Positions 48,380-56,045 of a DNA stretch of 64,000 nucleotides are shown in pieces. Source of the DNA: the human T2T-CHM13v2.0 reference genome, Homo sapiens. Each line of letters begins with the position of its first letter. The stretch's first letter is position 1. The notes below the pieces were generated by a model that did not search any database, was not told the DNA's origin, and worked only from the letters and a program-made list of their open reading frames with translations. A program made the position numbers and the translations under genes. The stretch lies in NCBI RefSeq assembly GCF_009914755.1, contig NC_060932.1. The stretch is one strand, 5' to 3'.

Positions 48380-51330
<2,951 letters not shown>

Positions 51331-52164: not shown

Positions 52165-52519
52165 TACAACAGACAAACAAACACAAATCCCGTCTATTCC
52201 ACAGCTAAGAGGGTTTCCAGTTTCAACATTGTCCCTGTTGTCCCTCCTGTCCTGATCACAGACCCCCATCACTGGTGACCCCAGAGTGATCCCAAATGCT
52301 GCCCCAGGTGACGTGCTGGTGGCCTGAGGCAAAATGTCTGTGTCACACTTCTTCTCCTCCTTCTTCTTCTTTCTTCCTAGAGACGGGATCTCACCATCTT
52401 GCCCAGGCTGGTCTCCTAACTCCTGGGCTCAAGCGAGCCTCCCACCTTGGCCTCCCGAGTAGCTGGGACCTACTGAGTCACACTTGTAGTCACATCCTTT
52501 TCCTTTCTCCAACCCACTG

Positions 52520-53560
52520 GTTAATCATGAAAGGCTCTTCTGATTGGCTGCCTCCTGGCAGTAGTGCCTCAGCGCGACGGTTCGGGAGCAAATAAATAAT
52601 TCCCGCTGGGAAGCTGTTTCTCAGACAGGAGCAGCGACACCCCTGCCACGCCTGCCGCCTGGAGTTGAGTGGGGTAAGCACGCCGGCCTCCAGGAATCGA
52701 CGGTGCCACGTGGTTCTTCTTGCACTTCTCTTCTTCTCCAGTTTCAGGGGACACCGTGGGGTGTGCGAGCCCGGGGGAGCGCAGGGAAGGGCGGGTTGGG
52801 CTGCAGGTGGGAATGTGCGGTCCTTCTGCGCCCTCAACAGAGCTTCCTTCCTTTTTGCCAAGGTCCCCGTGCCGCCTTCAGCGCGCCTCCTTATGCACCT
52901 CTACCTCTGCTGCAGCGTACCTCTTCCGCAGCCCTAGCGGCCTCCCCGAGGGGCGCCGCGGCCTCGGCTGTCCCTCCCCTGCCTGGCACGACCACCTGAC
53001 CCCCAGCGACCCAAGAAGCAAGTTGTGTTTGCAGACGCAAAGGGGCTGTCGTTGGTATCGGTGCACTGGTTTGAAGCCACTGCGGGCACAGCCTGAAGAG
53101 GGCCGGTGTCCCGCGTGCAGCCTCCCCGGCCCGGCCTCCTCCTGCTGCAGAACCGCCCCCCACGCCCGGGCTGCTGCGCCCCAGGAGGGACTAGCGGGTA
53201 TTCAGGGATGCCCGCACTCTCGGGGGCGAGCCTGCAGCTGTGTGCCCTGTAGGGGCTTCCTGCGGGGCACCGTGAGCGCAGGTGGGGACAAGCGGGCGGT
53301 GCAGATGCGCACCCCCTGGATGCCTGGGGCTCCTTCCAACAAGAGCCCTGTGTTGGAATGCCGGGTCCCCGCCGAGGTGAGAGGGTCGGCTTCGCCTTCC
53401 AGGTGGTGTTGCCGCCGAGTACCCTGGCCCCGCGGGCCACCGTCCAGTTCTGCTTCTCTTTAGAGCGTGCTCAGCGGCCTTTCGGGGACAGTAATCAAAG
53501 GCAAAACTACAGCTGGGTGCCGGGTTCGCCGTCCTGCTCATCAGAATGAAGCCAGGCTCT
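52520..53560. promoter_or_regulatory. Intergenic CpG-rich island covering the PPP1R3-like relic and its candidate promoter
   Basis: Many CpGs and high GC. ATTGG 52543-52547, AT-rich AAATAAATAAT ~52590, donor GGG|GTAAGC at 52674, pyrimidine tract plus AAG acceptor ending 52862. Confidence 0.65.
52863..53549 (+). pseudogene. Decayed PPP1R3C/PPP1R3B-like gene (PP1 glycogen-targeting subunit; RVxF motif + CBM21 domain)
   Basis: Manual translation gives family motifs in the correct order: MHLYLCCS (52893), LPCLA, KKQVVFADAKGLSLVSVHWFE (53013-53075), PRRD*RVFR (53180-53206), SLQLCAL* (53229-53252), LRGTVSAGGDKRAVQMRT (53260-53313), and [68 protein letters not shown] (from 53316; stop 53547-53549). 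It has at least 4 internal stops and several frameshifts. Compared with recalled PPP1R3C/B sequences. Confidence 0.85.
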
Positions 53561-53845
53561 GTGAGGGCGCACAGACAGACAGGCTGAGGCCTCTGCGCCT
53601 GCCTTTTCCACCTGGGCAAAGCGTGATTTCTTGTCCAGGACGCGCGTGTTTCCCATGTCGGGGAACTTTGCTCAATCTGTTTTCTTGCTCCTGAATTCAT
53701 AATGGGGAAACAGGACTGATTCAACTCCTAGTCCCTGCAGAAGGCCTCGAATGCCTTGCATTCTTCTCTCACTTCCTGACTACAAGGGATGAGGTTTTGC
53801 TTTAGGAAGATTCTGGGAATGGAGTCGGGAAACCGAAGAAATGCA

Positions 53846-53851
53846 AATAAA
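53846..53851 (+). terminator. Candidate poly(A) signal of the PPP1R3-like relic
   Basis: AATAAA ~300 nt after the relic's stop codon, followed by a GT-rich tract at ~53902-53945. Confidence 0.45.
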
Positions 53852-54246
53852 GTATTTATATGTAATTATTGAAAGGGCTTAGCAGAGAGTGTCTAAGGAC
53901 CGTGGGTGGTGTGTGCGTGCGCATGTGTGTATGTTTGTGTGTGTATTGCAGAGGTTGGGGAGGGGTTCTTTACGTTAAAGATGGGAGAGAGAACTTTGCC
54001 CTTCTACTTTCCTCTCCATCTAGGAAGGGCTACTTTCCTGGTAACTTGAAATAGTCAGGCTTATTCCACTTTTGCCAAAAGGAATGTTCATTAAAGCATC
54101 TTCAACAGTTGATATAATAAACACTTTTTCTCCCTCTTCATCATATAAAAGTGTGGGGAGACTCTGTCTCTGTTCATTTCAAAATATGGGTACTTTTAAA
54201 AACACTTATTTTCAGTAGTTTAGTACACTTTAATTTTTAATTTTAA

Positions 54247-54624
<378 letters not shown>

Positions 54625-56045
54625 TGATCCTCCCACCTTGGCCTCCCAAAGTGCTGGGATTACAGGCGTGAGCCAACACACCCGGCTGCTACTACTTCTT
54701 TGAGTGCAATTTACCTAGACCCAGAAACCTGACCTTTGCCCCCACGGCCCCCATAGCTCCCCATTATGTATTGATGGTCCGGTATTGAAAGCATCCACTG
54801 AAGTGTTTGCCTCCCCCAGGATGGGAGAAAGTGAGGACAAGTTGGCCTTGGACACAGCCGGCCGCAGGCTGGCCACCCCCCTGGAGCTCAGAACATATGG
54901 ATTAGAATAATATATGTGAATGTGTGCCAAGTATGCCTCTAGCTTCAATTTACAGTGTTCTGAGAGCTTTAGATGTTGGAAGGCTTTAACCTCTTTTCAG
55001 GGACTCTTCATTCTTCGATTATTATTCATAGATGACAAATTTTAAATAAAAGATTTCTTTTTGTACACTTTTATCTCTTCTGATACTTGATTTCTTGGAC
55101 TACATTTTTTATGCCAATGGCAGGTATTGAGGTTGAACAAGCAACATTCACTTTATTTTTTCTTTCTTTCTTTCTTTTTTTTTTTTTTTTTGAGACAGAA
55201 TCTTGCTCTGTCACCCAGGCTGGAGCGCAATGGCACTATCCTGGCTCACTGCAACCTCTGCCTCACGGGTAAGCGATTCTCCTCCCTCAGCCTCCCGAGT
55301 AGCAGGGATTACAGGTGCCTGCCACCATGCCCAGCTAATTTTTGTATTTTTAGTAGAGACGGGGTTTCACCATGTTGGCCAGGCTGGTCATGAACTCCTG
55401 ACCTCAAGTGATCCACCCAACCTTGGCCTTCCAAAGTGCTGTGATTACAGGCATGAGTCACCCCAACCGGCCACTTCATTTTTTTCCCTAAAGGGCCTGC
55501 CCCACCTGACTCTCGAACAAAACAGCCAGGGTGCCCTGCCAGGTGGTTAACAGGGTAAAGGCAGAAGCAGCCAAACACACAGGCTTCCAGGAACAGTGTG
55601 GACAGAGCTGCAGCTTCCTCATCTGATAATGGGAGCTATTGCAATCGCTACTGTTTCCCTCTTGCCTTCTAGAAGGCCTGACTCCATTAAGGGTTGATCA
55701 TGAATAGGGCAGGTGGACTTATAGAGCATGCTGTCAGAGTTGGGGGTTGCTTTCAAATTCAAGCTAGTAAAAATCAACAGAAAAGATGAGTAGCCAGCTG
55801 TAGAAGTGACGTACTCCTAAGATGTGTGGTAATGTATTTCTAATGACATTAGAGTTTCTGAAATCCATCTCATCATCATGGCCTAGCACTAGAAAGGGGA
55901 AGTGCTGGGAGACCACGTGGACCAGGCGTCACATTTAGAGAGGGTCTGGGACCTAGACTTTTGATACTATCTCCAAATTAAGTTACACATACAACTACAG
56001 AGAGAACTAACAGGATTGAAAAAAGATGCTGCTCAGCTGGGCTCA

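What the first reader, a model, noticed from the sequence alone, without database searches (positions are those of the whole stretch)
52863..53549. Hidden relic of a PPP1R3C-like PP1 glycogen-targeting gene (candidate unitary pseudogene)
Seen: translation across three frames gives an ordered motif series that no single ORF shows. Comparisons use recalled human PPP1R3C/B sequences. KKQVVFADAKGLSLVSVHWF vs PPP1R3C [20 protein letters not shown] (RVxF PP1-docking motif). PRRD*RVFR vs PSTDYLSFR. SLQLCAL* vs CLENCSLQ. LRGTV..DKRAVQMRT/LDAW vs [50 protein letters not shown] vs FSFAIDLPP..IEFCIS..FWDNNDGQNY (CBM21). Stops at 52935, 53094, 53192 and 53250, frameshifts, and W->G in the WDNN motif indicate loss of function. 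Inference: the divergence is too high for a recent retrocopy, and there is no poly(A) tail or TSD. This suggests an ancient paralog that died in place between GINS4 and the next gene. I recall a ppp1r3c2 paralog in fish/amphibians; that link is unverified.
Basis: partly seen in the sequence, partly recalled or inferred. Interest (0 to 1): 0.92.

Follow-up and report, generated by a model that had tools for sequence, protein, structure and literature searches.

The report
Dead eighth PP1 glycogen-targeting gene
Between GINS4 and GPAT4 the human genome carries the decayed remains of an eighth glycogen-targeting subunit gene of protein phosphatase 1, an old sister of PPP1R3C that is still intact in marsupials, birds, reptiles, salamanders and sharks.

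Summary
Window 52863-53564 (+) holds, in order and across three frames, the parts of a PPP1R3-type protein. These are an RVxF PP1-docking block, the DY(L)xFR and CLExC motifs, and a CBM21 glycogen-binding domain. My frameshift-aware alignment to human PPP1R3C scores 146, against 38.7 +/- 3.9 for 15 shuffles. The two largest in-frame pieces each hit PPP1R3C best in the PDB.

The reading as a unitary pseudogene is supported. The relic has no DNA match to any human paralogue. Its nearest relatives are intact 227-253 aa "PPP1R3C-like" proteins of 10 marsupial species (about 47% identity; score 245-315 against 141-146 for human PPP1R3C). In a tree it joins them with 100/100 support, inside a lineage found from sharks to birds that coexists with true PPP1R3C. 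AU tests reject placing it with mammalian PPP1R3C (p 0.018 and 0.011). No placental member turned up.

Synteny could not be tested directly. The only hint is a kiwi member that NCBI names as a GINS4 isoform.

The gene is disabled by at least six frameshifts, three premature stops and Trp-to-Gly in WDNN. The stretch is now CpG-island-like, the last exon of a predicted lncRNA, and overlaps an annotated enhancer. Interest is moderate.

The parts
52863..53564 (+). Whole recognisable relic of the PPP1R3C-like gene (N-terminal remnant to the region of the marsupial stop codon)
   Evidence: Three-frame alignments to human PPP1R3C and to five marsupial proteins. Whole-genome search with P0152 matches window 52950-53525 at E 2.7e-18.
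52860..52934 (+). Possible N-terminal remnant (frame 0, KVPVPPSARLLMHLYLCCS...), weakly like MPVDxAMRLCL of relatives. Followed by TAG 52935-52937 inside an 11-codon insertion relative to marsupials.
   Evidence: The alignments differ between guide proteins, so this part is uncertain.
52998..53075 (+). PP1-docking block DPQRPKKQVVFADAKGLSLVSVHWFE (frame 0). The RVxF-type core KQVVF is at 53016-53030.
   Evidence: Best PDB hit is the PPP1R3C RVxF peptide 7qfb, E 4.4e-4. tblastn gives 14 of 20 identical to human PPP1R3C. The koala protein P0153 also has KKQVVFAD.
53076..53179 (+). Proline-rich linker. It holds at least one net frameshift (frame 0 to frame 2) and TGA 53094-53096.
   Evidence: The path differs between guide proteins.
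53180..53209 (+). PRRD*RVFR (frame 2), the conserved (Q)PxxDYxxFR motif. TAG 53192-53194 stands at the Tyr.
   Evidence: Aligned to PSTDYLSFR of human PPP1R3C and to PLDDYGRF of marsupials.
53229..53252 (+). SLQLCAL* (frame 0), the VCLExC motif. TAG 53250-53252 stands where marsupials have Gln or Arg.
53254..53313 (+). Start of the CBM21 domain, GFLRGTVSAGGDKRAVQMRT (frame 1), with a two-codon in-frame deletion.
   Evidence: Aligned to LQGTVQVxNxGYEKxVQMRIT of marsupials and to [20 protein letters not shown] of PPP1R3C.
53316..53522 (+). Rest of the CBM21 domain (frame 0). PGPAG at 53423-53437 is readable only in frame 2, between two compensating frameshifts.
   Evidence: Pfam CBM_21 E 1.2e-4. 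PDB PPP1R3C CBM21 7qf7 E 8.1e-4. PGPAG matches the marsupial GPPGPAGTIQFCFSF.
53484..53486 (+). GGG (Gly) at the Trp of the conserved WDNN motif
   Evidence: W205, D206, N207 and N208 are invariant in 13 of 13 relatives aligned.
53547..53564 (+). TGA 53547-53549 and TGA 53562-53564, at about the place of the marsupial stop (SSE*SQAL* against ..SSESPL-stop)
   Evidence: Comparison by eye, uncertain.
50975..51074 (+). 100-nt copy of the RVxF block (91% identical to 52976-53075), inserted 2 kb upstream
   Evidence: Family D14. It is the only other match in the genome. It translates to KKQVVFADAKGLLLASVHRF.
52863..55071 (+). Exon 3 of the predicted lncRNA LOC124901939, which starts exactly at the 5' edge of the relic and contains all of it
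   Evidence: Annotation supplied with the finding. AG acceptor after a pyrimidine tract at 52842-52862.
52500..53700 (.). CpG-island-like stretch that coincides with the relic
   Evidence: For 52863-53564, GC is 0.67 and CpG observed/expected is 0.67. Among 181 windows of 700 nt the median is 0.27, and only the GINS4 promoter windows score higher.

Best explanation
This is the human unitary pseudogene of an eighth PP1 glycogen-targeting subunit.

The ancestral gene was an old paralogue of PPP1R3C. NCBI names its living members 'PPP1R3C-like' or 'PPP1R3C-B-like'; I call the lineage clade II. Its protein would have docked PP1 through the RVxF block and bound glycogen through its CBM21 domain, as PPP1R3C and PPP1R3B do. 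That function is inferred from family membership and was not tested.

Clade II is intact in sharks, coelacanth, Polypterus, lungfish, salamanders, turtles, squamates, tuatara, birds and marsupials, alongside true PPP1R3C. In the human lineage the gene decayed where it stood, downstream of GINS4. It carries at least six frameshifts, three premature stops and Trp-to-Gly in WDNN, so it cannot make the protein.

The loss is probably old, at or near the base of placental mammals. This is inferred from the amount of decay and from the absence of any placental member in the searches.

The stretch survives as a CpG-island-like region. It is the last exon of a predicted lncRNA and overlaps an annotated enhancer.
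For: Homology:
- Both large in-frame pieces hit PPP1R3C best in the PDB.
- One piece hits Pfam CBM_21 at E 1.2e-4.
- The three-frame alignment to PPP1R3C scores 146, against 29-43 for 15 shuffles.

Not a copy of a human paralogue:
- The genome-wide DNA search gives 2 matches, the locus itself and the 100-nt local copy.
- Codon-position identities to PPP1R3C are 50, 61 and 35 of 94.

Nearest relatives:
- 147 of the 150 best library proteins from a profile search were scored against the relic; the 3 longer than 700 aa were skipped. P0066 scores 315, the next best 230, and human PPP1R3C 141.
- P0066 is 'PPP1R3C-like' of Macrotis lagotis. A search with it gave 14 proteins at E <= 1e-10 among 745 candidates: 11 from 10 marsupial species (P0066 itself and 10 relatives 62-70% identical to it), 1 bird and 2 unnamed. 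None was placental.
- Identity of the relic to five marsupial proteins is 100/211, 102/208, 101/212, 91/198 and 86/196.

Tree (59 rows, 308 columns; the relic is represented only by 106 residues from in-frame blocks, placed through human PPP1R3C):
- Relic plus the 11 marsupial proteins form a clade with 100/100 support.
- True PPP1R3C forms its own group (91/88; in 98% of 200 bootstrap trees).
- Clade II follows the species tree. A quick tree of 83 rows agrees.

AU tests:
- Relic held with human, sea lion and platypus PPP1R3C: lnL 15.7 lower, p 0.0177.
- Relic and marsupials held with those three: lnL 22.2 lower, p 0.0109.
- Marsupials as one clade with the relic outside is not rejected (lnL 2.6 lower, p 0.26).

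Both paralogues are listed for the same species: Ambystoma, Rhincodon, Heptranchias, Sphenodon, Carettochelys and Nothocercus.

Place:
- Clade II member P0202 of Apteryx rowi is named 'GINS protein SLD5 isoform X1', that is GINS4, yet holds no GINS4 residues. NCBI therefore put it in the GINS4 locus.
- GOLGA7 (chr8:41.77 Mb) has its paralogue at chr10:98.7 Mb. Dickkopf genes lie at chr8:42.6 Mb and chr10:53.2 Mb. PPP1R3C lies at chr10:92.5 Mb.
Against: - Synteny was not tested. The kiwi name is an indirect hint from one species.
- The root of the tree is unsure. The long PPP1R3A and PPP1R3D rows attach weakly (38/73) beside Callorhinchus, so monophyly of clade II rests on where the root lies.
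- The branch leading to marsupials plus relic is long (1.19) and the relic's own branch is 1.63. Long-branch effects cannot be excluded.
- In the best tree the relic sits among the marsupials, with Macrotis outside (93/93). This cannot be literally true.
- The AU p values (0.011-0.018) are moderate.
- In the single-frame genome search, the marsupial protein P0152 matches intact human PPP1R3C (E 2.2e-36) and PPP1R3B (8.0e-34) better than the relic (2.7e-18).
- Non-mammalian clade II proteins score no better against the relic (turtle 162, axolotl 161, kiwi 150, coelacanth 141) than human PPP1R3C (146). The clade II assignment therefore rests on the marsupial proteins.
- The absence of placental members rests on capped lists: 14 hits, 120 shown of 381, and 150 shown of 4182.
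Confidence: 0.85

Rival explanations
1. Old processed retrocopy (or DNA copy) of mammalian PPP1R3C or PPP1R3B that decayed neutrally.
For: - PPP1R3C is the best-scoring human paralogue: 146, against 117 for R3D, 101 for R3A and 93 for R3B.
- Nearly the whole PPP1R3C coding sequence lies in one exon, so the lack of introns in the relic says nothing either way.
Against: - There is no DNA-level match to any paralogue.
- Third codon positions are near saturation (35/94) while second positions keep 61/94.
- Marsupial proteins score twice as high as PPP1R3C.
- The AU test rejects the relic inside mammalian PPP1R3C (p 0.0177).
- No A-run or flanking direct repeats are visible around 52800-53900.
Confidence: 0.03
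2. A duplicate of PPP1R3C that arose only in early mammals, diverged fast, was kept in marsupials and died in placentals. The attachment to the shark-to-bird lineage would then be a long-branch artefact.
For: - The branch leading to marsupials plus relic is very long (1.19).
- Non-mammalian clade II proteins are no closer to the relic than PPP1R3C is.
- No monotreme clade II protein was listed.
Against: - The AU test rejects marsupials plus relic held with mammalian PPP1R3C (lnL 22.2 lower, p 0.0109).
- The marsupial clade sits where mammals belong within clade II.
- The kiwi clade II gene is named as part of GINS4, the neighbour of the human relic.
- Neighbouring gene families have chr8/chr10 paralogue pairs.
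Confidence: 0.07
3. A transposed or retroposed copy of the clade II gene, whose original locus lay elsewhere and was deleted.
For: Synteny was not tested directly. A 100-nt piece of this very sequence did get copied 2 kb upstream, so local copying has happened here.
Against: - Only one locus exists in the genome.
- The relic lies on the same strand as GINS4 and downstream of it. That arrangement would explain the kiwi gene model.
- There is no poly(A) tract after the relic.
Confidence: 0.04
4. Chance resemblance in GC-rich DNA.
For: - The Pfam hit is below the curated cut-off (22.7 against 28.9 bits).
- The whole-genome Pfam scan missed the locus.
Against: - Five motif blocks lie in the right order with the right spacing.
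- Score 146 against at most 43 in 15 shuffles.
- E 2.7e-18 with a marsupial protein.
- 100/100 support in the tree.
Confidence: 0.01

Closest known systems
[quoted passage not shown]
   Same: Same block order and many shared derived residues, for example VQMR, EPCV, FQVxLP, PGPAG and QFCFS. Identity is about 44-49% in frame-aware alignment. They form a clade with the relic at 100/100. The C-terminus is short, and the relic's stops at 53547 and 53562 lie near the marsupial stop.
   Different: The marsupial genes are open and carry Pfam CBM_21. The human sequence is broken by frameshifts and stops and has Gly for the WDNN Trp. Gene position in marsupials was not seen.
Human PPP1R3C (PTG), chr10
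   Same: RVxF block with 14 of 20 residues identical, the DYLxFR and CLENC motifs, and a CBM21 domain. It is the best human paralogue by score. PPP1R3C gives the best PDB hits.
   Different: Only 83 of 318 alignment columns are identical. There is no DNA similarity. It belongs to a separate lineage in the tree, and AU tests reject union with it. PPP1R3C has a long C-terminal tail (GSPR...FPEWQSW) that marsupial clade II proteins lack.
'PPP1R3C-B-like' / 'PR3CB' proteins of birds, turtles, squamates, tuatara and salamanders, and '3C-like' proteins of coelacanth and sharks
   Same: They belong to the same lineage in the tree as marsupials plus relic and coexist with true PPP1R3C in the same species.
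   Different: They keep the C-terminal ...W...PYW tail. Their raw similarity to the relic is no higher than that of PPP1R3C.
Zebrafish ppp1r3c2a
   Same: The symbol exists and is described as a PPP1R3C-type gene (passage of PMC12819173). Four unnamed library proteins group with Polypterus in clade II and may be of this kind.
   Different: I obtained no sequence under that name, so the link is untested.

Membership tests
PPP1R3 family (PP1 glycogen-targeting subunits) | RVxF-type PP1-docking motif N-terminal to the carbohydrate-binding domain | tested here: met
   KKQVVFAD at 53013-53036. Best PDB hit is the PPP1R3C RVxF peptide, E 4.4e-4. The koala protein P0153 has the same KKQVVFAD.
PPP1R3 family (PP1 glycogen-targeting subunits) | CBM21 carbohydrate-binding domain (Pfam PF03370) | tested here: inconclusive
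   The single ORF piece gives E 1.2e-4 but 22.7 bits, below the cut-off of 28.9, and covers profile positions 42-111 of 113. The first strands lie in another frame. The frame-aware alignment is far above shuffles. As a remnant the domain is present. As a domain call it is below threshold.
PPP1R3 family (PP1 glycogen-targeting subunits) | Conserved Trp of the WDNN motif | tested here: not met
   GGG (Gly) at 53484-53486. The Trp is invariant in 13 of 13 aligned relatives. This counts as one of the lesions.
PPP1R3 family (PP1 glycogen-targeting subunits) | Open reading frame that encodes the whole protein | tested here: not met
   At least six frame changes and three in-frame stops. It is a relic of a family member, not a working member.
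Unitary pseudogene | Disabling mutations in a sequence with no functional copy of the same gene in the genome | tested here: met
   Lesions are listed under parts. The genome-wide DNA search finds only this locus and a 100-nt fragment. The seven intact paralogues belong to other lineages.
Unitary pseudogene | Intact orthologue in other species | tested here: met
   11 open marsupial proteins form a clade with the relic at 100/100. Orthology is shown by phylogeny only.
Unitary pseudogene | Same genomic neighbourhood as the intact orthologue | tested here: inconclusive
   The only hint is the kiwi clade II protein P0202, named as a GINS4 isoform while holding no GINS4 residues. No vertebrate assembly other than the human one can be read with these tools.
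Processed (retroposed) pseudogene | Poly(A) tract and target-site duplication; nesting within the parent gene's clade | tested here: not met
   No A-run follows the relic. The AU test rejects nesting in mammalian PPP1R3C. Loss of introns cannot be judged, because relatives have almost the whole coding sequence in one exon.
Clade II ('PPP1R3C-like / 3C-B-like') as an ancient paralogue of PPP1R3C | Both paralogues present in the same species across jawed vertebrates | tested here: met
   Pairs are listed for Ambystoma, Rhincodon, Heptranchias, Sphenodon, Carettochelys and Nothocercus. The two groups are separate in the tree, but the root is unsure.

The most novel reading that the evidence does not exclude
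The dead coding exon may have been kept for a new, non-coding job.

Its body is still a CpG-island-like stretch (CpG observed/expected 0.67, against a window median of 0.27). This is unexpected for DNA that decayed neutrally and methylated for about 100 million years. It is also the last exon of a predicted lncRNA and overlaps a RefSeq enhancer (annotation supplied with the finding).

The 100-nt copy that landed in AT-rich DNA differs from the relic at 9 places. At 3 of them the copy has TpG where the relic has CpG, and the relic keeps all 5 of its CpGs (read by eye).

On this reading the relic is an exapted orphan CpG island or enhancer, acting on GINS4, GPAT4 or GOLGA7. Separately, loss of the eighth glycogen-targeting subunit at the base of placentals could mark a real change in how glycogen synthesis is controlled.
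Probability: 0.25. Interest if true: 0.6.

Novelty: new member of a known kind. Interest (0 to 1): 0.45.

Why it matters
Humans are described as having seven PPP1R3 glycogen-targeting subunits (A-G). This relic shows that the ancestor had an eighth. It is a sister of PPP1R3C that is kept from sharks to marsupials and was lost on the way to humans, probably in early placental mammals.

That gives a dated, testable gene loss in glycogen regulation. It explains the origin of the 'uncharacterized' lncRNA LOC124901939. It also flags the marsupial and sauropsid 'PPP1R3C-like' genes as a distinct, unstudied family member rather than a variant of PPP1R3C.

My six full-text searches aimed at this relic or lineage found nothing in print. 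I could not consult the GENCODE or HGNC pseudogene tables, so it may already be catalogued there.

Tried and rejected
- Word-indexed protein search with the 98-aa piece, longer proteins: 0 of 187 candidates at E <= 0.001. The piece is too decayed for that index.
- Whole-genome Pfam CBM_21 scan: it found the seven paralogues but not the relic.
- I first read GSPSCSSE*SQAL*GR (53523-53570) as the remnant of the GSPR...FPEWQSWGR tail of PPP1R3B and PPP1R3C. I dropped this after seeing that marsupial proteins end shortly after the CBM21 domain. A weak match of TWAKRD (53610-53627) to turtle TWRRSE is left as a remark only.
- Search for an upstream coding exon (MSC...-type N-terminus) in 52301-52860 with turtle, kiwi, axolotl and coelacanth proteins: no alignment reached upstream of 52877.
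- Literature:
  - 'ppp1r3c2' gave 2 zebrafish hypoxia papers.
  - 'PPP1R3' with 'unitary pseudogene' gave 0.
  - PPP1R3 with paralogs, synteny and glycogen-targeting gave 10 papers, 9 listed. I looked at passages of two. PMC3603308 places PPP1R3C beside TNKS2 and HECTD2. PMC4797157 concerns PPP1R35. Neither bears on the relic.
  - 'PPP1R3C-like', 'ppp1r3cb' and similar gave 8 papers. None was about this lineage's history, judged from titles and abstract starts only.
  - GINS4 with GOLGA7 and PPP1R3C gave 3 gene-list papers.
  - LOC124901939 gave 0 papers and GPAT4-AS1 gave 2 unrelated ones.
  - PPP1R3 with pseudogene and marsupial gave 2 unrelated papers.
- Dating the loss from tree branch lengths was rejected, because the model inflates the length of a decayed row.
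Full report
**What is there**

The window is human chr8:41788001-41852000 (T2T). At 52863-53564 on the + strand the three forward frames together carry, in the right order, the parts of a PP1 glycogen-targeting subunit.
- Frame 0: ...RPRLSLPCLARPPDPQRPKKQVVFADAKGLSLVSVHWFE (52938-53075).
- A proline-rich linker follows.
- Frame 2: PRRD*RVFR (53180-53209).
- Frame 0: SLQLCAL* (53229-53252).
- Frame 1: GFLRGTVSAGGDKRAVQMRT (53254-53313).
- Frame 0: [14 protein letters not shown]...FAFQVVLPP...VQFCFS...[14 protein letters not shown] (53316-53522).

**More than chance**

- Pfam scan of six ORF pieces: one hit CBM_21 (E 1.2e-4, 22.7 bits, below the curated 28.9). One gave a meaningless row at E 6, and four gave nothing.
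- PDB sequence search with the 98-aa piece: four sequences, all PPP1R3 CBM21 domains, PPP1R3C first (E 8.1e-4).
- PDB search with the 52-aa piece: three sequences, all PPP1R3 RVxF peptides, PPP1R3C first (E 4.4e-4).
- A three-frame dynamic-programming alignment that I wrote gives human PPP1R3C a score of 146 on 52701-53700. The reversed protein scores 38, the other strand 38, and 15 shuffles give 29-43.
- A whole-genome scan with the Pfam model alone found the seven known paralogues (7 matches among 11 candidates) and not the relic. The homology therefore only shows once frames are bridged or a closer relative is used.

**Not a copy of a living human gene**

- A DNA search of the whole genome with 52800-53620 found two places: the locus itself and a 100-nt fragment 2 kb upstream.
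- Over 94 aligned codons, identity to PPP1R3C is 50, 61 and 35 at codon positions 1, 2 and 3. The PPP1R3C-PPP1R3B pair gives 0.57/0.68/0.29. That pattern fits long divergence under protein-level selection. It does not fit neutral decay of a copy, although alignments chosen on protein similarity favour positions 1 and 2 somewhat.

**The nearest relatives are marsupial**

- A profile built from PPP1R3C, PPP1R3B and three in-frame relic pieces (alignment A2) found 4182 proteins at E <= 0.001 among 1.84 billion representatives. 150 were listed.
- I scored 147 of those 150 against the relic with the three-frame aligner; the three longer than 700 aa were left out. P0066 scored 315, the next ones 230, 218 and 202, and human PPP1R3C 141.
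- A search with P0066 gave 14 proteins at E <= 1e-10 among 745 candidates. [quoted passage not shown] They are 227-253 aa long. The rest are one bird protein and two unnamed ones. None is placental.
- Frame-aware identity of the relic to five of the marsupial proteins is 100/211, 102/208, 101/212, 91/198 and 86/196. To human PPP1R3C it is 83 of 318 alignment columns.
- These alignments also uncovered a compensating pair of frameshifts near 53425 and 53441. Between them, frame 2 reads PGPAG, which matches the marsupial GPPGPAGTIQFCFSF.

**Results that pull the other way**

- In a single-frame six-frame search of the human genome, the marsupial protein P0152 matches intact PPP1R3C (E 2.2e-36) and PPP1R3B (8.0e-34) better than the relic (2.7e-18, two stops inside). 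I attribute this to the relic's decay.
- Non-mammalian members of the same lineage score no better against the relic (turtle 162, axolotl 161, kiwi 150, coelacanth 141) than PPP1R3C does.
- The assignment of the relic therefore runs through the marsupial proteins.

**Phylogeny**

- A last name-giving search with an alignment of 13 relatives found 381 proteins at E <= 1e-20 among 5316 candidates, and 120 were listed.
  - The lineage is called '3C-B-like', 'PR3CB' or '3C-like' in dozens of birds, turtles, squamates, tuatara, salamanders, coelacanth, Polypterus and sharks.
  - True 'PPP1R3C' is listed for the same species in six cases: Ambystoma, Rhincodon, Heptranchias, Sphenodon, Carettochelys and Nothocercus.
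  - No placental or monotreme member of the lineage was among the 120.
- I built a 59-row tree (308 columns; IQ-TREE, LG+C20+F+G4). The relic was represented only by 106 residues from in-frame blocks that do not depend on the guide, placed through its alignment to human PPP1R3C so as not to favour marsupials.
  - Relic plus the 11 marsupial proteins form a clade with 100/100 support.
  - True PPP1R3C forms its own group (91/88; 98% of 200 bootstrap trees), ordered sharks, ray-finned fishes, amphibians, then mammals and sauropsids.
  - The other lineage also follows the species tree: chimaera and sharks, coelacanth, Polypterus with four unnamed rows, lungfish, then salamanders, sauropsids and the marsupial-relic clade.
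  - An earlier quick tree of 83 rows gave the same placement.
- AU tests:
  - Relic held with human, sea lion and platypus PPP1R3C: lnL 15.7 lower, p 0.0177.
  - Relic and marsupials held with those three: lnL 22.2 lower, p 0.0109.
  - Marsupials held as one clade with the relic outside: lnL 2.6 lower, p 0.26, not rejected. This matters because the best tree nests the relic among marsupials (93/93), which must be an artefact.
- Weak points: the long PPP1R3A and PPP1R3D outgroup rows attach with 38/73 support next to Callorhinchus, so the root is unsure. The stem of the marsupial-relic clade (1.19) and the relic's tip (1.63) are long.

**Position**

- I could not read any other vertebrate assembly, so synteny is untested.
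- One indirect hint exists. A kiwi protein of this lineage (P0202, 307 aa) is named by NCBI 'DNA replication complex GINS protein SLD5 isoform X1', which is GINS4. Its sequence holds no GINS4 residues and is an ordinary member of the lineage. The simplest reading is that the annotation pipeline merged it into the neighbouring GINS4 gene on the same strand. That is where the human relic lies, 22 kb past the end of GINS4 on the + strand.
- The wider region fits an old duplication shared with PPP1R3C's chromosome.
  - The Erf4 family (GOLGA7) hits chr8:41.77 Mb, just upstream of the window, and chr10:98.7 Mb, plus a stop-bearing retrocopy on chr7.
  - Dickkopf genes lie at chr8:42.6 Mb, chr10:53.2 Mb and chr4.
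  - PPP1R3C lies at chr10:92.5 Mb.
  - That these pairs date from the vertebrate genome duplications is my inference from general knowledge.

**How it is broken, and when**

Relative to the marsupial proteins the relic shows:
- a stop (TAG 52935) inside an 11-codon insertion;
- at least one net frameshift in the linker;
- TAG 53192 at the Tyr of the DY motif;
- a shift between 53210 and 53225;
- TAG 53250 at a Gln or Arg position;
- shifts at about 53253 and 53314-53321;
- a two-codon deletion in the first CBM21 strands;
- the pair of shifts at 53425 and 53441;
- GGG for the Trp of WDNN (53484-53486).

The RVxF-type core reads KQVVF, as in the koala protein, so it is not itself a lesion.

Six or more frameshifts in 700 nt and about 47% residual identity to marsupials are what I would roughly expect after some 100-160 million years of neutral change. 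That estimate uses recalled rates, not a calculation from data. Together with the lack of any placental member, I infer a loss at or near the base of placental mammals. I hold this part at about 0.6.

**What it is now**

- According to the annotation supplied with the finding, the relic is wholly inside exon 3 (52863-55071) of the predicted lncRNA LOC124901939. The exon's acceptor sits at the relic's 5' edge. A RefSeq enhancer covers 53208-53970.
- The relic is also CpG-island-like. GC is 0.67 and CpG observed/expected is 0.67 over 52863-53564. Among 181 overlapping 700-nt windows of the 64 kb the median is 0.27, and only the GINS4 promoter windows are higher. This is unexpected for long-dead, methylated DNA. 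It is the basis of the bolder reading that the exon was kept as a regulatory element. I did not test that.

**Verdict**

This is a unitary pseudogene of an eighth, PPP1R3C-like PP1 glycogen-targeting subunit. It is a new member of a known kind. My six full-text searches aimed at the relic or its lineage found nothing in print, and the broader search brought nothing either. I could not consult pseudogene catalogues. No supplementary files were opened.

Noticed in passing
window 50975-51074 (flanks 50964-51095): A 100-nt copy of the RVxF block (91% identical to 52976-53075, exactly 2001 nt upstream) sits in AT-rich DNA. By eye it is flanked on both sides by ATATCATTAA, like a small insertion with a target-site duplication but without a poly(A) tail. 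It is the only other copy in the genome. A T-to-A change in it makes the CAG|GT at 51067/51068 that the predicted lncRNA uses as the donor of exon 1.
   Followed up: partly
window 52976-53075 against 50975-51074: Of the 9 differences between the two copies, 3 are CpG in the relic against TpG in the upstream copy. The relic keeps all 5 of its CpGs. This fits the relic being unmethylated in the germline and the copy methylated. Read by eye; the numbers are small.
   Followed up: no
window 53565-53627: Past the marsupial-like stop, frame 0 reads GRTDRQAEASAPAFSTWAKRD. The aligner put this against the turtle tail ...SKAAALVLSHMQTWRRSE. It may be a trace of the C-terminal tail that non-mammalian relatives keep and marsupials lack. 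The match is weak and was not tested against shuffles.
   Followed up: no
P0202 (Apteryx rowi): A PPP1R3C-B-like protein is named by NCBI as 'DNA replication complex GINS protein SLD5 isoform X1'. This is probably a merged gene model with the neighbouring GINS4.
   Followed up: partly
P0155 and P0156 (Trichosurus vulpecula): The brushtail possum has two proteins of this lineage. They are sisters in the tree (100/95), so there was a recent duplication in that species.
   Followed up: no
human chr7:67293034-67293372 (-): A full-length, one-piece Erf4 (GOLGA7-type) match with one TAA inside. It looks like a processed pseudogene of GOLGA7 or GOLGA7B.
   Followed up: no
window 53840-53850: An AATAAA signal lies about 290 nt after the relic's stop region, with no A-run in the DNA behind it. 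It could be the ancestral polyadenylation signal. The predicted lncRNA runs on to 55071.
   Followed up: no
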